Source: a bacterium (GTDB taxonomy: Bacteria > Patescibacteriota > Minisyncoccia > Phycocordibacterales > UBA2100). Taken from it: a DNA stretch of 41,638 nt. The first letter of the stretch is position 1. Each line of letters starts with the position of its first letter. A model generated the notes under the pieces. The model was not told the DNA's origin, did no database searches, and saw only the letters and a list, made by a program, of their open reading frames with translations. This document shows positions 8,145-38,584 of this stretch, piece by piece. Both the position numbers and the translations under genes were made by a program. The stretch lies in assembly GCA_016789445.1 (NCBI GenBank), contig JAEUQT010000003.1, positions 38,962 through 80,599 of the forward strand, read 5' to 3'.

Positions 8145-9203
8145 CTAGATTCCCTCTTTACGGAGCTGCTCGATCGCCTCTTTCGCTTTCTTGGAGAGCT
8201 TCTTCGGGAATTCGATATCAACGCGCACCAGAAGATCGCCACGCCCACCGCGATGCGAAGGTACGCCCTTGCCGCGGATGCGGAGGAATTCGCCCTGACT
8301 TACGCCTTGCGGGATCGCGAGCGTCGTTTCGCCGTCGAGCGTCTGGATGCGGTATTCGGAGCCGAGGAGCGCATCGGAGAGCTTGATGGAAAGCGCGGTG
8401 ACAAGATTCATGCCGTCGCGGGTGAAAAGCTTGTCCTGACGGACATGGATCTTCACGTAGAGATCCCCTGCAGGGACTCCGGTAGCCGCTTCGCCGCGGC
8501 CCGGCATGCGGATCATCTCGCCGTTTTCCGCTCCTGCAGGAATGACGACGTGTACCTCTTCCTGCTTCTTGAGTACGCCCTCGCCGTGACACGCGGTGCA
8601 GGTTTCCTTCGGGACTTCGCCGCGGCCTTTGCAGGTCGGACAGCTGCGCGCAGAGGTAAAGGTGCCGAAGAAGGTATTGCGGCTTTCCTTTATCTGACCC
8701 TTTCCGTTGCACGCCGCACACGTGACGGTGCCGGAGCCCTTCTTGGCGCCGGTGCCGGAGCATGTATCACACTGGCCGAGTTTCGAGATAAGGATGCGGC
8801 GTTCGGTGCCGAAGATGGCATCACGGAACGGGATCTCGACATCGATCGAGATGTCGCGACCGCGGCGCGTACGGCGTCCGCCACCACCGAAGACATCGCT
8901 GAAGATATCCCCGAGATCGAATTCGACGCCGCCGTTCTGGAATCCTTCAAAGCCGGCGAAATTCGAGAAATCAAAACCTCCTGCGGATGCGCCACCGGAG
9001 AATGTCCTGCCGTAGGTATCGTATTCGGCGCGCTTCTTCCTATCGGAGAGTACTGCGTACGCCTCGCTCGCTTCCTTGAACTTCGCTTCGTCACCTCCTT
9101 TCTTATCAGGGTGATACTTGTGTGCCAGCGTGCGGAACGCCTTCTTGATCTCCTCTTCGCTTGCTGATTTCGAAACGCCGAGGATCGAGTAGTAATCTTT
9201 CAT
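8145..9203 (-). CDS. dnaJ: Chaperone DnaJ
   Basis: J domain (KDYYSILGV...HPDK), G/F region, and four CxxCxGxG zinc-finger repeats. Start MKDYY at 9203. Confidence 0.95.
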   Translation of the reverse strand: MKDYYSILGVSKSASEEEIKKAFRTLAHKYHPDKKGGDEAKFKEASEAYAVLSDRKKRAEYDTYGRTFSGGASAGGFDFSNFAGFEGFQNGGVEFDLGDIFSDVFGGGGRRTRRGRDISIDVEIPFRDAIFGTERRILISKLGQCDTCSGTGAKKGSGTVTCAACNGKGQIKESRNTFFGTFTSARSCPTCKGRGEVPKETCTACHGEGVLKKQEEVHVVIPAGAENGEMIRMPGRGEAATGVPAGDLYVKIHVRQDKLFTRDGMNLVTALSIKLSDALLGSEYRIQTLDGETTLAIPQGVSQGEFLRIRGKGVPSHRGGRGDLLVRVDIEFPKKLSKKAKEAIEQLRKEGI

Positions 9204-9210
9204 GCGGTGC

Positions 9211-9216
9211 ATTATA
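9211..9216 (-). promoter_or_regulatory. -10-like TATAAT box 7 nt upstream of dnaJ ATG (leaderless-type)
   Basis: Reverse strand reads gcTATAATgcaccgcATG. Confidence 0.5.
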
Positions 9217-9268
9217 GCCGCGGTTACCAGCGCGGCAAGCGCTGCCGTTCATCTACTACGTTCGCTTG

Positions 9269-9360
9269 ATATGTATTTCTTGCGGTCGCTGTCTGCGCCT
9301 GCTGGCGCAGCGCTCAGTCTCGGCCCCGTCGGGCCTGCGAAGACCGCAAGAAACACATAT
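9269..9360. repeat. Family-1 structured intergenic element, copy 1 (between dnaK stop and dnaJ promoter)
   Basis: Outer 19-bp stem ATATGTATTTCTTGCGGTC / GACCGCAAGAAACACATAT (1 mismatch). It encloses the core GGTCGCTGT-[CTGCGCC TGCT GGCGCAG]-CGCTCAGTCTC-[GGCCC CGTC GGGCC]-TGCGAAGACC. Confidence 0.85.
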
Positions 9361-9382
9361 CTGCGCTCTCTCCTTTCAAAGT

Positions 9383-15973: not shown

Positions 15974-16070
15974 ACCCCGTTAGAGAATTCAGGGCTGTGC
16001 TGCGGGCCAAATGGTATTGATAAGCGATTTTTCATGGTTAGTCTCGAATGGAGAGGTTCTCTAACGGGGT
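15974..16070. repeat. Family-3 element, copy A: 97 bp bounded by perfect 14-bp inverted repeats
   Basis: ACCCCGTTAGAGAA (15974-15987) and its reverse complement TTCTCTAACGGGGT (16057-16070). Lies between the stop of the 448-aa gene and the infA start. Confidence 0.8.
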
Positions 16071-18596: not shown

Positions 18597-18638
18597 TGCC
18601 AGAATTATACACGCTCCTGATAGAGCTGCGGTCCGGAT

Positions 18639-18733
18639 GCGGGATATGCTCCTTCCGGGTAAACCCGTTTTTCCTAGTGAAAAAACGGGCAGGTCCTCGC
18701 CAGCTGCGGGGCCCCTCCAGGAACATATCCCGC
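18639..18733. other. Composite long hairpin in the alaS-downstream spacer
   Basis: Outer arms GCGGGATATGCTCCT... / ...AGGAACATATCCCGC enclose an inner hairpin CCCGTTTTT-CCTAGTG-AAAAAACGGG and the direct repeats AGCTGCGG (18624/18702). Confidence 0.6.
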
Positions 18734-18749
18734 AACCGTCCCTTCCCTT

Positions 18750-22771: not shown

Positions 22772-23107
22772 TTATGCGATCGCGCCTTCGCGACGAAGTA
22801 TCTCACGCTTGCGATCCCTTCCTCCGCGATTGTAGTTCCCCAAGCCGCCGTCGGATCGCACGACGCGATGGCACGGAACATCTTCGAGATAATTAGTGCG
22901 CATGACCGCACCGACGGCGCGCGCCGCCTTGGCATTTCCCGCCTTCGTTGCGACTTCCTTATAGGTCATGGTCTTCCCTTCGGGGATCTTCCTCACGACG
23001 TCGCGTACTTTGTCTGCAAAGGATTTCACCCCGTTAGAAATATGACGCTGACGTCGAACACGCCTTAGAGACGGTTGCATATTTATTGAGATCCGGGTCG
23101 TTTTCAT
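22772..23107 (-). CDS. MGMT-family protein (methylated-DNA--protein-cysteine methyltransferase DNA-binding/active-site domain only)
   Basis: IPEGKTMTYKEVA...VPCHRVV contains the PCHRV active-site Cys motif. The N-terminal ~22 codons lie inside repeat family 3 copy B, so the start is uncertain. Confidence 0.7.
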   Translation of the reverse strand: MKTTRISINMQPSLRRVRRQRHISNGVKSFADKVRDVVRKIPEGKTMTYKEVATKAGNAKAARAVGAVMRTNYLEDVPCHRVVRSDGGLGNYNRGGRDRKREILRREGAIA

Positions 23108-23145
23108 AATCGACAGTACTGCGGGTCAGCAATTTCTAACGGGGT
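23028..23145. repeat. Family-3 element, copy B: 118 bp bounded by perfect 14-bp inverted repeats
   Basis: ACCCCGTTAGAAAT (23028-23041) and ATTTCTAACGGGGT (23132-23145). The right arm abuts the stop codon of the nuclease gene (23146). The interior shares ATGAAAA...TCAATA with copy A. Confidence 0.8.
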
Positions 23146-24019: not shown

Positions 24020-24134
24020 CTCGTGCAGCAGCACGAGGCGAAAGGGTGAGAAGCGAAGCTTCGCAAGGCCGGAGGCGTTTGGCGCCGAGGCGGGGTCGCG
24101 CAAAATCGTAACAACGATTTATGCGTGGCCGGAG
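24020..24134. repeat. Family-2 structured intergenic element, copy a
   Basis: [CTCGTGC AGCA GCACGAG]...[GAAGC GAA GCTTC]GCAAGGCCGGAG-[GGCG TTTGG CGCC]-GAGGCGGGGTCGCGCA-[AAATCGT AACA ACGATTT]-ATGCGTGGCCGGAG. Confidence 0.8.
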
Positions 24135-27663: not shown

Positions 27664-29148
27664 TTACATCGGAAGATTTGCCGGCGGTTCGGACTTGGAT
27701 GATGGGATTCGCTGGAGACCAGGGGCGCGGATAGTGCGGGATGGCGGATGCCACATCGTCGCAAGGACTTCGACGCTCATGATGTTACGCACATCCTCCC
27801 ACGGCGGATTCCACATCTGACGACGACGATATGCATCAAGATAGCGATGGATCTCGTGGTAATGACGGTGATCGTGGTAATCCTGCCACGGCCAATCGAA
27901 GTCGTTATGTGCATTGCGCGGTCGGAGCATGACCCCCCAATTCGGATTGGCATAGGGGCGCCAGATCCAACGCACAGCAGTCGCGGTAGGCCCGCGGAAA
28001 TTATCTTTCGGACCGATGAAAACCATGCGCACACCGGTGTCATATGCGAGCTTTGAGAGATTACGCTCCATCGAGCGCATGAGCTCTTGTTGCGCCCACG
28101 TCGGGCGCGGGAAACCGTACTTGTCCTCATCATCATGATCATCAAGCGAACGCCCCGGATTGAGTGATGCTTTCTTGCGGAGATCCTGAATCTCTTTCTC
28201 GACGAGTTTTTTCCATCCGTCCCCCGGATGTGCCTTAATGACGATCTGCACCCACGCCTGCTCGCCTTGCTGGAGCGAACTCAGTACTTCCAGCACCTGC
28301 GCCATCGGTTCGACTTTCAGTTCTTCTTTCGGATCCTTATCGAGCTCGAAATCGACATAGGTCTTGATGGGGTACGCATTTACTCGCGGGTCATGACGCG
28401 AGATGTCATGCGACTCAAGCATGTAATCACCGACGAACGCATTATGTTTATCGTCATCGAAATGGAAATCGACCGCATAATCACTTACCTCTACGATCTC
28501 CACCTCCGGATACTGCGCGTACATGTTCGTCTCGAAGACGTTGCGAAGGTAATCGCGCTGCAGCCATACATAGAAATGCACCTGTCCGCCATCGGATACG
28601 AGTTCAAATGAGTAGTACGGCATTGTTCCTCCTTTCCATTTCTTATCAATTACGGTGGTCGTCGAAAGTCGGAACCACAGGCCCGTGAGTGCCAACTCCA
28701 TGGCACGAGGAGATTTCGTCACTTCCGTCGGCATCTTCACCTCCAGAAGAACCGGCTTCGTATTCATGAATATGAAGTAGGAACGTACATACCAGTTCCA
28801 AGCCCCCCAGAATCCATAGGCAAGACCCGCCGGCAACAGGATCGGTCCTGCAAGGAGAATCCACCCGAAAACGAGCGCAGGAAATTGCGGCACGAGCATG
28901 GTGCATGCCAGCATGCCTCCAAGGAAATTCGCGGTGAGGAAGGTGCCACGGGAAATGCCTTTGTCACCTGCCCACTCCCACCATGCCAAAACACTGAACC
29001 AAGCACGCCAGCCTTTTGGTGCATGCGCATGTCCGCCATGTCCATGATCATCATGTGGCATCAGGCTGTCGATGCCCTTCTGGGCTCCCGACGCGAGCGT
29101 GTCGAACAGCGAATCAAGTACTGATTTCCCGTGTGCCTCTTCGGCCAT
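27664..29148 (-). CDS. Membrane protein with His-rich N-terminus and Trp/His/Arg-rich C-terminal domain, unknown function
   Basis: 494 aa. HDDHGHGGHAHAPKG, about 3 TM helices, then LLEVKMPTEVTKSPRAMELALTGLW and a C-terminal WPWQDYHDHRHYHEIHRYLDAYRRRQMWNPPWEDV. TATAGT 6 nt upstream of the ATG. Confidence 0.55.
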   Translation of the reverse strand: MAEEAHGKSVLDSLFDTLASGAQKGIDSLMPHDDHGHGGHAHAPKGWRAWFSVLAWWEWAGDKGISRGTFLTANFLGGMLACTMLVPQFPALVFGWILLAGPILLPAGLAYGFWGAWNWYVRSYFIFMNTKPVLLEVKMPTEVTKSPRAMELALTGLWFRLSTTTVIDKKWKGGTMPYYSFELVSDGGQVHFYVWLQRDYLRNVFETNMYAQYPEVEIVEVSDYAVDFHFDDDKHNAFVGDYMLESHDISRHDPRVNAYPIKTYVDFELDKDPKEELKVEPMAQVLEVLSSLQQGEQAWVQIVIKAHPGDGWKKLVEKEIQDLRKKASLNPGRSLDDHDDEDKYGFPRPTWAQQELMRSMERNLSKLAYDTGVRMVFIGPKDNFRGPTATAVRWIWRPYANPNWGVMLRPRNAHNDFDWPWQDYHDHRHYHEIHRYLDAYRRRQMWNPPWEDVRNIMSVEVLATMWHPPSRTIRAPGLQRIPSSKSEPPANLPM

Positions 29149-29200: not shown

Positions 29201-29305
29201 AACACGCCATAGGGTTTCCGAGGGTCTCTCGCAGCGCGACGGCGCGAGAGTGAGCGCTGCACCAGCAGGTGCAGACAGCGACCCGAGGAAACTCTATGGC
29301 GTGTT
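29201..29305. repeat. Family-1 structured intergenic element, copy 2 (inverted on + strand)
   Basis: Outer 26-bp stem AACACGCCATAGGGTTTCCGAGGGTC / GACCCGAGGAAACTCTATGGCGTGTT. Reverse strand core: GGGTCGCTGT-[CTGCACC TGCT GGTGCAG]-CGCTCACTCTC-[GCGC CGTC GCGC]-TGCGAGAGACCC. Confidence 0.85.
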
Positions 29306-29313
29306 GAGTGCCG

Positions 29314-30354
29314 TTAGCGGGCGAGAGCGTACTTCCCGTCCGGCTGACGCTTGAACTCGCTGTGCTGGAGATTGACGACGATGGTCGCATCCTTCACGTA
29401 GCGTTCGCGCTTCACACGATCGATGATCTCATCGCGCGAGAGTGCGCCATCGCGCTCGAGGACGTTGCGGATGACTTCGCGGACGACGCCCGGAGCATAG
29501 CCCCACTCCTTGAGTGCATAGAGACCGCGGCCGACGAGGACGAAACGGCCATCCTTGATGAGCTCGTTGTGAGTCGTTGCCGGATGTGCTTCACGCTTGA
29601 AGAGATCACGGATGCCCTTGGCGACTTCGGTGAAGTGCATCGGAGAGCCATGGCGCTTAAGCGTGAGGTACGCGAAATCGCGGGTGTTCTTGATGCGGAC
29701 GTGCGGGGATTCGGTGCGACCCCACTCGCCGAGCGGATTGCGACCGAGACGCTTCGAGATGCGCAACCAGCGGCGCATGGTCTCTTCGTCGCGGTTCTTC
29801 ACGCCGGCGTCCTTGAGGGACTTGCCGAACTGCGCGAGGAATTCGTCCTCCGGAAGGAGCACGCTTGCCTCGACGGCATCATAGAGATCGGAGAGTGCGG
29901 TTTCGACCGCCTCAGCGAGGGATGCATCCACGTGCCAGCGGCGGTGGAAGTTCGCATCTTCGCGCTTGTCATTGAAATGATGGCCCACGGTGAGGACGAA
30001 GAGCACATGATTGCGCTCAGCTTCGTTCTTCGGGACATGGGAGAGGATAGTATCTTCAGCAAGGACACCGCCGAGTTCCTGAACAGCCTTCTTGAGCTCT
30101 TCGAGGGTCTTTGCGTGCTCTGCGTAGCTCTCGGAATCGCGCACTGCAGCGATACCGCCGGATTCGATCTGGCGGATGCGCTCACGGGTGATGCCGTATT
30201 CCTTGCCGATAGCCTCGAGTGTGCGGCCTTTGCCACCTCCCTGGAGGCCGAAGCGGTCGATGAGGACGCGACGGACGCGATCCGGAAGGCCCGCAAGCAG
30301 GTCCTTTGTTACTGACTTCGGTTGAAACGATTGCATAGATTGACTTTTTGTCAT
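29314..30354 (-). CDS. Sigma-70 region-4-like HTH protein with C-terminal HARE-HTH (RNAP delta-like) domain
   Basis: RVLIDRFGLQGGGKGRTLEAIGKEYGITRERIRQIE is region-4-like. The C-terminal SPMHFTEVAKGIRDL...DGRFVLVGRGLYALKEWGY is the HARE-HTH pattern. Start at 30354, or ATG 30336. Confidence 0.6.
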   Translation of the reverse strand: MTKSQSMQSFQPKSVTKDLLAGLPDRVRRVLIDRFGLQGGGKGRTLEAIGKEYGITRERIRQIESGGIAAVRDSESYAEHAKTLEELKKAVQELGGVLAEDTILSHVPKNEAERNHVLFVLTVGHHFNDKREDANFHRRWHVDASLAEAVETALSDLYDAVEASVLLPEDEFLAQFGKSLKDAGVKNRDEETMRRWLRISKRLGRNPLGEWGRTESPHVRIKNTRDFAYLTLKRHGSPMHFTEVAKGIRDLFKREAHPATTHNELIKDGRFVLVGRGLYALKEWGYAPGVVREVIRNVLERDGALSRDEIIDRVKRERYVKDATIVVNLQHSEFKRQPDGKYALAR

Positions 30355-30575
30355 CACTATGATGTACCTTATATCAAAGCCGTCCAAACCTGTCAACTCT
30401 CCCGGGAATACCCCCTACCCTCAATCGTCCTCCTTTTGGAGCATTCCCTGACCCGGATGCGAAATAGCCACGATTCCCTCTACGGGTCAACCGATTTCCC
30501 TTGTCCACAGTCATATCACAGGTTAATCCCAGATGCGAGGTATGCATGGCTGCCACCTCTTTCAGGTGCCGGTGC

Positions 30576-30581
30576 TACAAT
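30576..30581 (+). promoter_or_regulatory. -10-like TACAAT box 7 nt upstream of dnaB ATG
   Basis: gcTACAATtcagtgcATG. Confidence 0.5.
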
Positions 30582-30588
30582 TCAGTGC

Positions 30589-31980
30589 ATGAGTTCGGTA
30601 CGAGTCCCGCCGCAGGATCTTGAAATGGAGAAAGCACTCCTTGGTGCCTTGATGATCAATCAAAGCGCGATCTATGACTGTGCCGATGTCGTGCATGTCG
30701 ATTCCTTCTACGCGGCGAAGCATCGCACTATCTACGATGCGATGCTCACGCTCTACGGAAAGGGAGAACCGATCGACGTCGTTACCGTCGCGGGTAAATT
30801 GAGCGAGCGGAAGCAGCTCAGCGACATGGGCGGTCGCGCCTATCTTTCCGAACTCGCCGGCAGCGCCGCTTCTCCCGGATCAGCTCGTCACTACGCAGAA
30901 GCAGTGCAGTCGAAATTCGTACTCCGCTCGCTGTTGGATGCTGCAGCGAAGATCGGCGAACTCGGTTTCCAGGAAGACCGCGAGATCGCTGCGGTCTTGG
31001 ATGAGGCGCAACAGGCTATTTTCGCGGTTTCCAACGCCCCGATGCTCCAGAAGTTCTCGGTCATCAAAGAGGAGCTTACCGAGGCGTGGGAGCGCTTGGA
31101 GAGTCTCCAGAAACATACGGATGCGCTGCGCGGCGTACCGTCCGGCTTCCCGGCGCTGGACACCATGCTTTCCGGCTTCCAGAAGTCAGACCTCGTCATC
31201 CTCGCCGCCCGTCCTTCCATGGGTAAGACCGCCCTCGCACTGGATATCGCCCGCCAATCGGCGGTGAAGCACAACACGCCGGTCGGCATCTTCTCCCTTG
31301 AAATGAGTTCGCAGCAGCTCGTCGATCGTATGCTCGCGGCGCAGGCGGGAGTCAATGCGTGGAAGCTGCGCACGGGTAAGATCAACAAGGATGAGGAGTA
31401 CGATCGCTTACAGGCGGGTATCGCGGAACTTTCCGAAGCGCCGATTTTCATCGACGATAAGGCCGGCAACACGGTCCTTTCGATCCGCTCGGTCGCGCGA
31501 CGCATGAAAATGGAAAAGGGTCTCGGCCTTGTCGTCATCGACTACCTCCAGCTCATTACGCCGTCGCTCACTGGCGCGAATGTCTCGACCGTGCAGCAGG
31601 TTACGGAGATCTCCCGCGGTCTCAAGGGTATGGCGCGTGAATTGGATGTGCCGGTCATCGCGCTTTCCCAGCTCTCCCGTGCTGTCGAGCAACGCCGCGG
31701 CCGCCCACGACTTTCCGACCTGCGCGACTCTGGTTCCATCGAACAGGACGCCGACGTCGTCATGTTCATCCACCGCGAAGACATGATGGGTTCCCGTGGC
31801 GCTGACGAGAAGAACAACGTCGCTGAAATCCTCATCGAAAAGCACCGCAACGGCCCGGTCGGTAAAGTCGATCTCATGTTCGATAGCGAGAAGACCACCT
31901 TCAAGTCGGTCGAGAAGTCCGATTTCGGTGATTTCACCCCTGAAGCGAGCGTGAGCGGCATGGAGGAGCAGCCGTTCTAA
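30589..31980 (+). CDS. dnaB: Replicative DNA helicase DnaB
   Basis: PPQDLEMEKALLGALM..., Walker A ARPSMGKTA, IDYLQL, RDSGSIEQDADVV. The track ORF N-terminal extension from 30322 is not DnaB-like. Confidence 0.93.
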   Translation: MSSVRVPPQDLEMEKALLGALMINQSAIYDCADVVHVDSFYAAKHRTIYDAMLTLYGKGEPIDVVTVAGKLSERKQLSDMGGRAYLSELAGSAASPGSARHYAEAVQSKFVLRSLLDAAAKIGELGFQEDREIAAVLDEAQQAIFAVSNAPMLQKFSVIKEELTEAWERLESLQKHTDALRGVPSGFPALDTMLSGFQKSDLVILAARPSMGKTALALDIARQSAVKHNTPVGIFSLEMSSQQLVDRMLAAQAGVNAWKLRTGKINKDEEYDRLQAGIAELSEAPIFIDDKAGNTVLSIRSVARRMKMEKGLGLVVIDYLQLITPSLTGANVSTVQQVTEISRGLKGMARELDVPVIALSQLSRAVEQRRGRPRLSDLRDSGSIEQDADVVMFIHREDMMGSRGADEKNNVAEILIEKHRNGPVGKVDLMFDSEKTTFKSVEKSDFGDFTPEASVSGMEEQPF

Positions 31981-31996
31981 CTAAAATTTTATCGAA

Positions 31997-32104
31997 TATT
32001 CGGCCTGACATGCCTCTCGGGTCGCTGTCTGGCGCTGCTGCGCCAGCGCTCAGTCTCGCGCCCGTCGGCGCTGCGAAGACCCTCGATGCATATCAGGCCG
32101 AATA
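31997..32104. repeat. Family-1 structured intergenic element, copy 3 (between dnaB stop and recR promoter)
   Basis: Outer stem TATTCGGCCTGACATGCCTCTCGGGTC / GACCCTCGATGCATATCAGGCCGAATA (imperfect). Core: GGGTCGCTGT-[CTGGCGC TGCT GCGCCAG]-CGCTCAGTCTC-[GCGCC CGTC GGCGC]-TGCGAAGACCC. Confidence 0.85.
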
Positions 32105-32129: not shown

Positions 32130-32729
32130 ATGGATCCGATAGAGCGATTGACCACTCTTTTCCAGAAATTCCCCGGCATCGGCCCGCGTCAGGCGCAGCG
32201 TTTCGTGCAGTATCTTCTGCGCACCTCGCCGGCGATACGCCGCGAGATCATGGAGAGCATACGCGAGCTTGGGAGCGAAGTGGCGCAGTGCCCTTCGTGT
32301 CAGCGGTATCACTCGGGAAAGAAAGGACTCTGCTCGATCTGTTCGAGCCATGAGCGCGACGTCTCGCTGCTCGCGATCGTCGCTTCGGATGCCGATCTGG
32401 CGGCGCTTGAGCGAAGCCACATGTTCCGTGGACGCTATTTCGTCCTTGGGGGCCTTCTCTCCCTCGCATCGGATCGCATGACCGGCCTACGCGTGAAGGA
32501 GCTGCTCGATTCGCTTCCTAAACGTCGTGACGATGGTCTCTCCGAAGTCATCTTGGCATTTCCCGCGAATCCTGAAGGTGATTCGACGGCCATCCGTGTC
32601 AAAGAAGAGATCCAGGAGAATGTGACCGGCATTACGATTTCCATGCTCGGCCGCGGACTCTCGACCGGATCGGAATTGGAGTACGCCGATCCGGAAACCT
32701 TGCGCAACGCCTTCGAGAATCGACATTAA
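32130..32729 (+). CDS. recR: Recombination protein RecR
   Basis: HhH FPGIGPRQAQRF, zinc finger CPSCQRY...CSICS, Toprim domain. Confidence 0.93.
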   Translation: MDPIERLTTLFQKFPGIGPRQAQRFVQYLLRTSPAIRREIMESIRELGSEVAQCPSCQRYHSGKKGLCSICSSHERDVSLLAIVASDADLAALERSHMFRGRYFVLGGLLSLASDRMTGLRVKELLDSLPKRRDDGLSEVILAFPANPEGDSTAIRVKEEIQENVTGITISMLGRGLSTGSELEYADPETLRNAFENRH

Positions 32730-38385: not shown

Positions 38386-38462
38386 TAGGCACTCTTCTTG
38401 TATGCGTGTGGATAGTACGGTGAAGGCATCATGGGACATGGCGTCGTGAGAACCTCGCGTGA

Positions 38463-38584
38463 GACGGGGTTGGGGCCCCGTCGCAAGGCCGGAGCAGCTT
38501 GGCTGCGAGGCGGGGTCGCGCAACATCGCAGCAGCGATGTATGCGTGACGGAGCGATTTTTCAGCAGAAAATTACACGACCCCG
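38463..38584. repeat. Family-2 structured intergenic element, copy b
   Basis: [GACGGGG TTGGGG CCCCGTC]GCAAGGCCGGAG-[GCAG CTTGG CTGC]-GAGGCGGGGTCGCGCA-[ACATCGC AGCA GCGATGT]-ATGCGTGACGGAGC... CGGGGTCG (38511-18) can pair with CGACCCCG (38577-84). Confidence 0.8.

What the first reader, a model, noticed from the sequence alone, without database searches (positions are those of the whole stretch)
9269..9360. Family-1 structured intergenic element (3 copies): invariant loops and junctions, covarying stems, locus-specific long outer stems
- **Copies:** 9269-9360, 29201-29305 (inverted) and 31997-32104.
- **Shared core (about 62 nt):** GGGTCGCTGT-[hairpin1, loop TGCT]-CGCTCA(G/C)TCTC-[hairpin2, loop CGTC]-TGCGA(A/G)AGACC.
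- **Hairpin 1 covaries with pairing preserved:** CTGCGCC/GGCGCAG, CTGCACC/GGTGCAG and CTGGCGC/GCGCCAG in copies 1, 2 and 3.
- **Hairpin 2 covaries likewise:** GGCCC/GGGCC, GCGC/GCGC and GCGCC/GGCGC.
- **Outer stems:** each core sits on top of a 19-26-bp stem. The three stems are unrelated in sequence but each is self-complementary.
- **Position:** all copies lie between the stop of one gene and the -10 box of the next co-directional gene (dnaK|dnaJ, sigma-like|494-aa gene, dnaB|recR). None has a U-tract.
- **Orientation:** relative to transcription, copy 1 is opposite to copies 2 and 3.

This pattern argues for selection on structure. Candidate roles are an RNA or ssDNA element acting as an unconventional terminator or insulator, a processing or protein-binding site, or a non-autonomous element that inserts into hairpin tips. 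I do not recognise it as any known RNA family.
Basis: seen in the sequence. Interest (0 to 1): 0.7.

Follow-up and report, generated by a model that had tools for sequence, protein, structure and literature searches.

The report
Mobile Y-tipped hairpin repeat of Patescibacteria
The three structured "intergenic elements" are copies of an undescribed small mobile DNA hairpin with a conserved Y-shaped tip. It is scattered through the genomes of tiny Patescibacteria (CPR) bacteria, where it sits between genes and also, read in frame, inside essential genes, much like the palindromic elements of Rickettsia.

Summary
There are three copies in the window, none expected by chance, with invariant loops and junctions, covarying hairpins and long self-complementary outer stems. 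No Rfam family matches.

A pattern scan found about 145 further unique copies, nearly all in Patescibacteria MAGs and groundwater metagenomes.
- **In-frame copies:** about a quarter lie inside long ORFs (Tgt, UvrD, RecG, UvrB, MetK, IleRS, LeuRS). They occur in both orientations, always in one frame per orientation, and the host protein continues in frame. They are therefore translated, not spliced.
- **Presence/absence:** the window's dnaK-dnaJ copy is present in some Kaiserbacteria relatives and absent, arms included, from six others.
- **Multiple loci:** one genome carries four near-identical copies at different loci.
- **Strand asymmetry:** non-Watson-Crick positions in the arms favour one strand (G·T and tandem G·A), whatever the direction of host transcription.

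Best reading: a non-autonomous palindromic mobile element, MITE- or RPE-like, whose single-stranded form with its Y-shaped core is what gets recognised. The enzyme and the intermediate (DNA or RNA) are unknown. The terminator, riboswitch and processing-site readings are not supported. I class it as a new variant of a known kind, of moderate to high interest.

The parts
9268..9361 (+). The strand that folds better is the - strand, which is the dnaK-to-dnaJ mRNA strand.
   Evidence: Inverted repeat I3. Covariance model hit 9271-9358 at 83.4 bits. Folds at -57.7 kcal/mol (+) and -63.1 (-) as RNA, and -36.0 and -38.9 as DNA.
9284..9345 (+). Copy 1 core (GGTC...GACC), the '56-nt' subtype. Hairpin 1 is 9293-9310 (loop TGCT 9300-9303). 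The junction CGCTCAGTCTC is 9311-9321. Hairpin 2 is 9322-9335 (loop CGTC 9327-9330). TGCGAAGACC is 9336-9345.
   Evidence: Read from the sequence and matched exactly by the pattern.
9260..9267 (+). Left flanking box GTTCGCTT, a GCTC-type motif just outside the arm.
   Evidence: Family-wide, CGCTC or GCTCG occurs in 53 and 57 of 144 left flanks, against 4-10 for the reverse-complement motifs.
9362..9369 (+). Right flanking box TGCGCTCT, in direct orientation to the left box. It looks like a target-site duplication.
   Evidence: TCGCT or CTCGC occurs in 77 and 70 of 144 right flanks, against 8-9 for the reverse complements. Empty sites in relatives show at most one such motif.
29201..29305 (-). 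Copy 2, whole palindrome, with the core on the - strand. It lies between the Sigma70_r4 gene (29314-30396, -) and the 494-aa gene (27664-29148, -). The core GGGTC...GACCC is 29222-29284, the '54-nt' subtype.
   Evidence: Inverted repeat I1. Covariance model hit 29210-29296 at 99 bits. Sequence.
31997..32104 (+). Copy 3, whole palindrome, between dnaB (30322-31980, +) and recR (32130-32729, +). The core is 32019-32082, the '56-nt' subtype. A tandem C·T/T·C pair, which is G·A/A·G on the other strand, lies 2 bp below the core.
   Evidence: Inverted repeat I2. Covariance model hit 32007-32094 at 71.2 bits. Several short-read assemblies of the same species break inside this copy.

Best explanation
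The three sites are members of a previously undescribed family of small (about 95-165 bp) non-autonomous palindromic mobile elements of Patescibacteria (CPR). The window comes from a Kaiserbacteria-like genome.

**Anatomy.** Each element is a long imperfect inverted repeat. Its arms are variable in sequence and about 12-45 bp long. At the tip is an asymmetric, highly conserved core of about 63 nt that folds into a compact three-way (Y) junction with two short hairpins. GCTC-type boxes in direct orientation often lie just outside the arms.

**Shown**
- The family is multicopy.
- It is polymorphic for presence or absence at orthologous sites.
- It lands between genes, and also in frame inside housekeeping genes, where it is translated.
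- Pairing is maintained by compensatory change.
- One specific strand carries the structurally benign non-Watson-Crick pairs.

**Inferred**
- The element moves as a unit, arms plus core.
- Mobility goes through a single-stranded, strand-specific intermediate in which the arms present the Y-shaped core to a trans-acting enzyme that reads the core's shape, loops and junctions. I favour ssDNA and cannot exclude RNA.
- This would explain why the core is almost invariant while the arms only need to pair.
- Insertion prefers AGCGAG/GCTC-like targets and may duplicate them.
- Loss probably occurs by slippage across the palindrome.

In the window the copies are most likely passengers. At most they have side effects such as a strong hairpin between dnaK and the dnaJ promoter.
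For: - **Distribution:** the genome scan gave 86 stretches, about 77 true copies, almost all in records labelled Patescibacteria, Parcubacteria, Kaiser-, Nomurabacteria and the like, with up to 12 or more copies per MAG. After removing duplicates there are 145-154 unique copies.
- **Mobility, dnaK-dnaJ spacer:** it is occupied in the window and in relatives with 91% and 82% DnaJ identity. It is empty (40-59 nt, no arms) in relatives at 89, 88, 85, 79, 79 and 78%.
- **Mobility, UvrD site 1:** occupied in two genomes, degenerate in one, empty in three.
- **Mobility, one genome:** four near-identical copies with their own outer terminal repeats lie at unrelated loci of one Kaiserbacteria MAG.
- **In-frame copies:** 31 copies lie in open frames of at least 1200 nt. 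All 16 sense copies read GSLS...ALTL...CERP and all 15 antisense copies read GLSQ...RVSA...DSDP. The downstream host motifs (ALFGIVQGG, ILYRANFQSR) stay in frame.
- **Structure:** covariation as. At the orthologous dnaK-dnaJ copy, window and L097 differ by 7 arm pairs changed on both sides and a compensated change in hairpin 1.
A·C 214 against G·T 86, and pyrimidine·pyrimidine 221 against purine·purine 24. The bias has the same direction in every context class, whichever strand the host transcribes.
- **No cis-encoded enzyme:** the recurrent neighbours are housekeeping genes only.
- **Core conservation:** at UvrD site 2 the core is 81-97% identical between genomes, while adjacent synonymous third positions are only 45-60% identical.
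Against: - No transposase, recombinase or reverse transcriptase has been linked to the element. Only about 3 kb around each copy could be inspected, not whole genomes.
- Element ends and the target duplication are not cleanly defined. The flanking boxes are 4-7 nt, degenerate, and could be part of the element rather than duplicated target.
- A variable inverted repeat with a conserved centre is the reverse of a classical MITE.
- Conservation of the core far above synonymous sites at one orthologous site could mean a host-level function in situ, rather than turnover or gene conversion.
- The same UvrD and Tgt sites are occupied in both orientations in related genomes. Simple one-off insertion does not explain that.
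- Copies are related by descent, so the binomial p-values overstate significance.
- ORF context was called with a crude longest-ORF heuristic.
- Some taxon labels in the records, for example 'Saccharibacteria', were not verified.
Confidence: 0.65

Rival explanations
1. A cis-acting structured RNA with a host function: an unconventional terminator or insulator, an RNase processing or stability element, or a protein-binding site in mRNAs.
For: - Strong, covarying structure.
- G·U and tandem G·A pairs on one strand are RNA-like.
- Intergenic copies usually lie just after stop codons, and divergent promoter regions are under-represented: 6 divergent against 19 convergent and 31 co-directional.
- Copy 1 sits between the dnaK stop and a dnaJ promoter-like site.
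- The core is conserved well above synonymous sites.
Against: - The favoured strand is antisense to the flanking or host genes in about half of all copies, and arm pairing is equally good in both classes.
- About a quarter of copies are translated inside essential genes.
- The dnaK-dnaJ copy is absent from six close relatives.
- There is no U-tract and no Rfam match.
- The two short hairpins almost never use G·U: 1537 Watson-Crick, 18 G·T and 19 A·C.
Confidence: 0.1
2. A non-autonomous retroelement, SINE-like. An RNA copy folds into the Y-tipped hairpin, is recognised by a reverse transcriptase encoded elsewhere, and is copied back into the genome in either orientation.
For: - The strand-specific wobble and G·A pattern is inherited by copies whatever the local transcription.
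- The direct-repeat boxes flanking copies could be target duplications.
- From my own knowledge, untested here: CPR genomes are rich in reverse transcriptases.
Against: - No reverse transcriptase was found near any copy.
- There is no 3' tail or internal promoter.
- Hairpins 1 and 2 avoid G·U.
- No precedent exists for such elements in bacteria.
Confidence: 0.08
3. A DNA-level host signal, for example a binding, cruciform or recombination site for a conserved CPR protein involved in chromosome maintenance or DNA uptake. It would be kept in place by selection and only occasionally duplicated.
For: - The core is invariant across distant MAGs and 81-97% identical at an orthologous site where synonymous positions are near saturation.
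- Pairing is maintained in situ by compensatory change.
- The hairpins are Watson-Crick on both strands.
Against: - Distribution is patchy. Exact-pattern copies occur in only a few dozen of the species scanned.
- Sites are gained and lost between close relatives.
- Copies sit inside coding sequences with no positional logic.
- Copy number ranges from 1 to more than 12 per MAG.
Confidence: 0.1
4. Only the core of about 63 nt is mobile, and it inserts into the tips of pre-existing local hairpins.
For: - Arms are extremely diverse while the core is constant.
- L101 has outer arms related to those of L097 and the window, but a different core, at the same site.
- A second repeat family is nested in the single-stranded junction of the core in L093.
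Against: - All six empty dnaK-dnaJ sites lack the arms too.
- Identical arms plus core recur at four loci in one genome.
- In UvrD and Tgt the whole 33-37-codon block, arms included, is extra relative to uninterrupted homologues.
Confidence: 0.05

Closest known systems
Rickettsia palindromic elements (RPE), 'selfish DNA in protein-coding genes' (Ogata et al. 2000, recalled from memory; mentioned in PMC1779305 and PMC10969869)
   Same: - A palindromic repeat of about 100-150 bp in a reduced genome.
- Found between genes and inserted in frame in housekeeping genes.
- Read in a constant frame, adding a short hydrophilic peptide.
- No associated transposase.
   Different: - No sequence relation, and a different phylum.
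- Here the centre is an invariant, asymmetric Y-shaped core and the arms are variable.
- Both orientations are used in frame.
- There is clear strand asymmetry in the non-Watson-Crick pairs.
REP / REPIN elements mobilised by RAYT (HUH Y1) transposases
   Same: - Short intergenic hairpin-forming repeats.
- Recognition is by structure and specific to a single strand.
- Non-autonomous and multicopy.
   Different: - In REPINs the arms (the REP 25-mers) are conserved and the tip is variable, which is the opposite arrangement.
- REPs are essentially extragenic.
- No GTAG-type 5' motif is present and no RAYT gene was seen.
Classical bacterial MITEs with long hairpin transcripts (Correia/NEMIS, ERIC/IRU, BOX, RUP)
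   Same: - Size, copy number and presence/absence polymorphism.
- Folds into a long stem-loop.
- Located near gene ends.
   Different: - Those have conserved terminal inverted repeats recognised by a DDE transposase, and defined target duplications.
- Here the terminal repeats differ between subfamilies and the centre is conserved.
- In-frame coding insertions are common here.
IS200/IS605-derived palindrome-associated elements (PATEs)
   Same: - Strand-specific.
- Hairpins recognised as ssDNA.
- A short asymmetric target motif adjoins the ends.
   Different: - In PATEs the two hairpins lie at the two ends of the element, not side by side at the tip of a long stem.
- No orientation bias relative to gene direction was seen here.
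- No TnpA gene was found.
Parvovirus (AAV) inverted terminal repeat: a T-shaped hairpin with a GAGC-repeat Rep-binding element (recalled from memory, a lead only)
   Same: - A long stem capped by two small hairpins forming a three-way junction.
- Two orientations, as in flip and flop.
- GAGC/GCTC-repeat boxes next to the stem.
   Different: - That is a viral replication origin at the ends of a linear genome, not an interspersed chromosomal repeat.
- No Rep or HUH gene has been identified here.
- The sequence resemblance is short and could be chance.
Integron attC sites
   Same: - Recombination sites recognised as folded single strands.
- Strand choice is set by unpaired or extrahelical bases.
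- Sequence is variable but pairing is conserved.
   Different: - attC sites have conserved inverted R boxes at the base and a variable tip.
- They occur in cassette arrays next to an integrase.
- None of these features is present here.

Membership tests
MITE (generic non-autonomous transposable element) | Short, non-coding, multicopy within a genome | tested here: met
   - Elements are 95-165 bp.
- There are 3 copies in 41.6 kb of the window.
- One Minisyncoccia MAG carries at least 12 copies.
- One Kaiserbacteria MAG has four near-identical copies at different loci.
MITE (generic non-autonomous transposable element) | Presence/absence polymorphism at orthologous sites | tested here: met
   - The dnaK-dnaJ spacer is occupied in 3 lineages and empty in 6.
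- UvrD site 1 is occupied, degenerate or empty in different genomes.
MITE (generic non-autonomous transposable element) | Conserved terminal inverted repeats shared by family members | tested here: not met
   The arms pair within each copy but differ between subfamilies. Only the central core is conserved.
MITE (generic non-autonomous transposable element) | Target-site duplication of fixed length | tested here: inconclusive
   - Direct GCTC-type boxes of 4-7 nt flank many copies, oriented with the core.
- The empty site in L098 holds AGCGAGCGAG once.
- The boundaries are too fuzzy to fix a length.
MITE (generic non-autonomous transposable element) | A related autonomous element encoding the transposase | tested here: inconclusive
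   - No transposase or recombinase appears among the recurrent neighbours within about 3 kb of 192 copies.
- There are no hits in viral, phage or plasmid collections.
- Whole genomes could not be searched.
Rickettsia palindromic elements (RPE) | Palindromic repeat inserted in frame in protein-coding genes and read in a constant frame | tested here: met
   All 31 copies in long ORFs are in frame, with one frame per orientation. Hosts are TGT, UvrD, RecG, UvrB, MetK, IleRS and LeuRS.
Rickettsia palindromic elements (RPE) | Sequence homology to RPE-1..n consensus, and occurrence in Rickettsiales | not tested
   - No RPE consensus was available to align.
- All hits are in Patescibacteria records.
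- Treated as an analogue, not a member.
REP/REPIN-RAYT | Conserved REP arms with a variable loop, and a RAYT gene in the genome | tested here: not met
   - The architecture is reversed: a conserved tip and variable arms.
- The RAYT gene is not testable without whole genomes.
Described RNA families (Rfam 15), including ribozymes, riboswitches and sRNAs | Covariance-model match at or near the gathering score | tested here: not met
   - The only gathering-score hit in the window is a tRNA.
- At E up to 10 only chance microRNA-like hairpin hits of 19 bits or less appear.
- Nothing matched the expanded copy in L093.
Intrinsic (Rho-independent) terminator | GC-rich hairpin followed by a U-tract, oriented with the upstream gene | tested here: not met
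   - No terminator-like site was found at any of the three copies.
- Orientation relative to genes is mixed.
Intron / intervening sequence removed from mRNA | Removal makes reading-frame preservation irrelevant | tested here: not met
   All in-ORF copies preserve the frame and contain no stop codon, and the downstream catalytic motifs stay in frame. Direct RNA evidence is not available.

The most novel reading that the evidence does not exclude
The element defines a new mechanistic class of mobile DNA. The transposition machinery would recognise only a conserved three-way-junction 'head' in a folded single strand, and the element's ends would be set by wherever the supporting hairpin stops pairing. 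That would explain arms that are free to vary, grow and be swapped, heads that can be exchanged or invaded (L101, L093), flipping at a fixed site, and in-frame survival in essential genes. The machinery would be a still unidentified enzyme widespread in Patescibacteria, possibly HUH/Rep-like given the GCTC-repeat boxes. Alternatively, the head has been co-opted as a genome-wide DNA or RNA signal in these reduced genomes.
Probability: 0.2. Interest if true: 0.85.

Novelty: new variant of a known kind. Interest (0 to 1): 0.6.

Why it matters
- **Unexplained protein insertions:** Patescibacteria have tiny genomes, yet their conserved proteins carry many unexplained insertions. This family explains some of them as translated mobile hairpins. 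To my knowledge the only well-known precedent is in Rickettsia.
- **A handle on the mechanism:** the near-invariant Y-shaped core, with strict covariation and strand asymmetry, should help identify the unknown enzyme that moves such elements. That question has stayed open for RPE-like repeats.
- **Practical value:**
  - The element breaks short-read assemblies.
  - It can be mis-annotated as small ORFs.
  - It inflates protein alignments.
  - The covariance model built here can flag it.

Tried and rejected
- **Rfam:** searched at gathering and at permissive thresholds on the window copy and on the expanded L093 copy. Nothing relevant.
- **Peptide profile:** a profile of the two element-encoded peptides against 5.8 billion proteins returned only three tiny ORFs. 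The word index limits sensitivity, so it gave no census of host proteins.
- **Flipped allele:** an exact search for a flipped copy 1 in metagenomes found nothing.
- **Viral contigs, phage records and plasmid records:** no copy.
- **Orthologous contexts among the 86 genome loci:** tblastn found none for the window's three sites, so their positions are not shared with those species.
- **Neighbour clustering:** this search for a cis-encoded transposase found only housekeeping genes.
- **Literature:** searches by topic and by sequence string found no description.
- **Ideas rejected:**
  - Spliced intron: the frame is always preserved.
  - Ribozyme or riboswitch: no Rfam match and mixed orientation.
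  - Hairpin-tip insertion at the dnaK-dnaJ site: the empty sites lack the arms.
  - Simple in-place inversion of the core alone: the asymmetric mismatches in the arms flip together with the core.
Full report
**1. The observation.** The three sites are real and specific.
- The composite pattern GGTCGCTGT-N-CGCTCANTCTC-N-TGCGA matches exactly at 9284-9340 (+), 29229-29283 (-) and 32020-32076 (+). No match occurred in 100 dinucleotide shuffles (sequences).
- Each core sits between inverted-repeat arms of 20-29 nt that are 85-95% complementary and unrelated between copies.
- All three fold far better than shuffled controls on both strands, as RNA (z = -5.8 to -9.2) and as DNA.
- Copy 1 is inverted relative to the flanking transcription compared with copies 2 and 3.
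- No U-tract terminator accompanies any copy. A TTGCCG-16-TATAAT promoter-like site for dnaJ lies just downstream of copy 1.
- Rfam 15 has no match at gathering or permissive thresholds.

**2. It is a large family confined to Patescibacteria.**
- One scan of 185,579 species-representative genomes with a slightly loosened pattern returned 86 stretches. About 77 are true copies, with match lengths of 52-56 nt (54 nt for most) and the same hairpin layout. Almost all are in records labelled Patescibacteria, Parcubacteria, Kaiser-, Nomura-, Liptonbacteria, Paceibacterota, Minisyncoccia or 'Saccharibacteria'. One MAG has 12 or more copies.
- The roughly nine hits in other phyla have odd lengths, lie in ordinary coding sequence and look like chance.
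- I did not verify the taxon labels. Some 'Saccharibacteria' records carry proteins nearly identical to Nomurabacteria ones.
It found nothing in viral contigs, phage records or plasmids.
- DnaJ homologues place the window in a Kaiserbacteria-like lineage.
- At least three core subtypes exist:
  - '54-nt': CGCTCACTCTC...TGCGAGAGACC, with a 4-bp hairpin 2 (copy 2).
  - '56-nt': CGCTCA[G/A]TCTC...TGCGAAGACC, with a 5-bp hairpin 2 (copies 1 and 3).
  - CGCTGCCTCTC...TGCGAGACACC.

**3. Structure.**
- In an ungapped alignment of 66 copies, hairpin 1 is 99.4% paired, with 5 of 7 pairs showing changes on both sides. Hairpin 2 is 98.5% paired, with 3 of 4. The first 17 bp of the outer stem are 82.7% paired, with 14 of 17.
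- No shuffle out of 500 reaches the observed covariation score, and sliding the partners by 1-3 columns collapses pairing to 37-45%.
- Loops and junctions are invariant or nearly so.
- The invariant junction nucleotides can extend both small hairpins, so the core is a compact three-way junction. This last point rests on inspection and the predicted folds only, because invariant positions cannot covary.
- A covariance model (R1) finds only the three copies in the window and 89 hits in the first set of loci, including divergent second copies the pattern had missed.

- On the complementary strand these become G·T(U) wobbles and G·A pairs.
- The G·A pairs form a recurrent tandem 5'-GA/3'-AG loop two to five pairs below the core.
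- All three window copies fold better on that strand.
- The bias has the same direction whether that strand is the host mRNA strand or its antisense, in ORFs and between genes. Arm pairing is equally good in both classes.
- By contrast the two short hairpins are almost purely Watson-Crick: 1537 Watson-Crick, 18 G·T and 19 A·C.
- The copies are related by descent, so the nominal p-values (1e-13 and 4e-41) are only indicative.

**5. It is insertional and polymorphic.** I fetched the dnaK-dnaJ spacer from relatives found with the window's DnaJ.
- **Occupied:** the window (170 nt), L093/L094 (91% DnaJ identity) and L097 (82%).
- **Empty:** L095 (89%), L100 (88%), L096 (85%), L098 (79%), L102 (79%) and L103 (78%) have spacers of 40-59 nt with neither core nor arms.
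- **Compensation in situ:** between window and L097 the arms differ at nine pairs. Seven changed on both sides and stayed Watson-Crick, and hairpin 1 changed CTGCGCC/GGCGCAG to CTAGGCC/GGCCTAG.
- **Nested repeat:** L093 carries an 89-nt member of a second repeat family inside the core's single-stranded junction.
- **Different core:** L101 (88%) has, at the same site, related outer arms (GGTATGTGCG.../...CGCATATACC) around an unrelated core.
- **Multiple loci in one genome:** in one Kaiserbacteria MAG four copies with near-identical arms and an extra outer terminal repeat (AGAGCATGTTCTGAAA; whole element about 165 nt) lie in unrelated flanks. Two of them differ from the other two by a compensated G-C to A-T change in hairpin 2.

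**6. Copies inside genes.**
- With a crude longest-ORF caller, about a quarter of copies fall inside long ORFs: 49 of 192 before removing duplicates, and 34 of 145 unique full copies.
- Pfam identifies the hosts as queuine tRNA-ribosyltransferase (TGT), UvrD (two sites), RecG, UvrB, SAM synthetase, IleRS and LeuRS. No Pfam domain covers the inserted segment.
- In every one of 31 copies lying in open frames of at least 1200 nt the frame is preserved. The 16 sense copies all read ...GSLSPRARGALTLGPSACERP... and the 15 antisense copies all read ...GLSQADGPRVSARLASRDSDP....
- By my own reading of the consensus, five of the six frames of the core are free of stop codons.
- Catalytic motifs downstream (ALFGIVQGG in Tgt, ILYRANFQSR in UvrD) remain in frame. 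The elements are therefore translated rather than spliced out.
- The whole block, arms included, is extra relative to uninterrupted homologues: 33-37 codons.
- UvrD site 1 is occupied in two genomes, degenerate but still hairpin-forming in one, and empty in three.
- UvrD site 2 is occupied in all five related genomes (72-78% protein identity), three times in one orientation and twice in the other. The asymmetric arm mismatches flip with the core.
- At that site the 59-nt core is 81-97% identical between genomes, while third codon positions in the adjacent 47 codons that encode identical amino acids in four of the five genomes (46 of 47 in the fifth) are only 45-60% identical. So either selection, re-invasion of a preferred site, or conversion between copies keeps the cores alike.

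**7. Flanks.** GCTC-type motifs lie just outside the arms in direct orientation and are polarised with the core.
- In 144 unique copies, CGCTC and GCTCG occur in 53 and 57 left flanks. TCGCT and CTCGC occur in 77 and 70 right flanks.
- (GCTC)x2-type 7-mers occur in 34 left and 30 right flanks, against a background of 2.7% per window and 0-1 occurrences of the reverse complements.
- Many individual copies show 4-6-nt direct repeats such as TCGCTC on both sides.
- The empty site of L098 contains AGCGAGCGAG once.
- This fits a preferred target that is duplicated, but the boxes could equally be part of the element.

**8. What it is.** The evidence fits a non-autonomous palindromic mobile element that moves as arms plus core.
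- No enzyme gene travels with it. Clustering 861 ORFs within 3 kb of 192 copies gave only housekeeping families.
- The variable arms, invariant asymmetric head, strict covariation and element-intrinsic strand asymmetry suggest a folded single strand as the recognised form. This is an inference.
- I favour ssDNA because the small hairpins avoid wobble pairs and structural quality does not depend on host transcription. An RNA intermediate is not excluded.
- The architecture is the reverse of REPINs and classical MITEs, which have conserved ends and a variable middle.
- Functionally the closest analogue is the Rickettsia palindromic element.
- The Y-tipped hairpin with adjacent GCTC repeats recalls parvoviral terminal repeats and their Rep-binding GAGC repeats. 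That comparison comes from memory and was not tested.

**9. What it is not.**
- **Not a terminator, insulator or processing signal required by the flanking genes:** it is dispensable in relatives, faces either way and sits inside ORFs.
- **Not a known RNA family.**
- **Not an intron.**
- **Not a core dropped into a pre-existing local hairpin,** at least at the one site that could be checked.

**10. Novelty and limits.**
- Full-text searches by topic and by sequence strings found no description. Subscription literature is not covered.
- I class it as a new variant of a known kind: RPE- or MITE-like selfish palindromes.
- Not settled: the enzyme, the nature of the intermediate, the exact ends and target duplication, the reason for the single reading frame per orientation, and whether core conservation reflects turnover, conversion or a host-level role.

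Noticed in passing
window 38460-38547, and a partial copy at 24086-24127; also L093 2306-2394, L069 653-740 and L013 518-558: A second structured repeat family of about 89 nt (TGAGACGGGG...GGGGTCGCGCAACATCG-AGCA-CGATGTATGCGTGAC), 85-93% identical between copies. In L093 it is nested inside the junction of the Family-1 core at the dnaK-dnaJ site. It has no Rfam match.
   Followed up: partly
window 18634-18738: A long-armed hairpin (20-nt arms, 90% complementary) capped by a different structured core (AACCCGTTTTTC...GAAAAAACGGG, GGGGCCCC). It has the same 'arms plus tip' architecture as Family 1. No other copy was found in the sequences held.
   Followed up: partly
window 15974-16070 and 23028-23145: Two elements share perfect 14-nt terminal inverted repeats, ACCCCGTTAGA(G/A)A...T(C/T)TCTAACGGGGT, around unrelated interiors of 69-90 nt. 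Each ends within a few bases of the stop codon of a minus-strand gene.
   Followed up: no
L101 504-589 (the dnaK-dnaJ spacer of a relative with 88% DnaJ identity): The same intergenic site carries a hairpin whose outer arms resemble those of the window and L097 copies, but whose 86-nt tip is unrelated to the Family-1 core. This suggests that tips can be exchanged between elements.
   Followed up: partly
window 9203-9238 (- strand): The likely dnaJ start (ATGAAAGATTAC, MKDYY) lies only 7 nt after the TATAAT of a promoter-like site that is conserved in all relatives. This suggests a leaderless or near-leaderless dnaJ mRNA. The ATG at 9212 listed by the ORF finder overlaps the -10 box.
   Followed up: no
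L088-L090 and L092 (contig starts 72 nt upstream of recR): Several independent short-read assemblies of the same species break exactly inside copy 3. The element is therefore an assembly breakpoint.
   Followed up: no
L135 6031-8310; L055 3835-7569; L068 2596-5559: Whole-domain insertions in housekeeping proteins of these MAGs: a PD-(D/E)XK nuclease domain inside LepA, a histidine-phosphatase domain inside IleRS and a NUDIX domain inside LeuRS.
   Followed up: no
L018 7666-7737 and L033 425-495: A further palindromic segment of about 72 nt is nested in the right arm of two of the four Kaiserbacteria MFLU01 copies, making a longer variant of the element.
   Followed up: no
L025 5488-5575 (UvrD site 1): A degenerate in-frame copy (29 bits) with diverged junctions. 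It still keeps a 7-bp AT-rich hairpin with the AGCA loop, as well as paired arms.
   Followed up: partly
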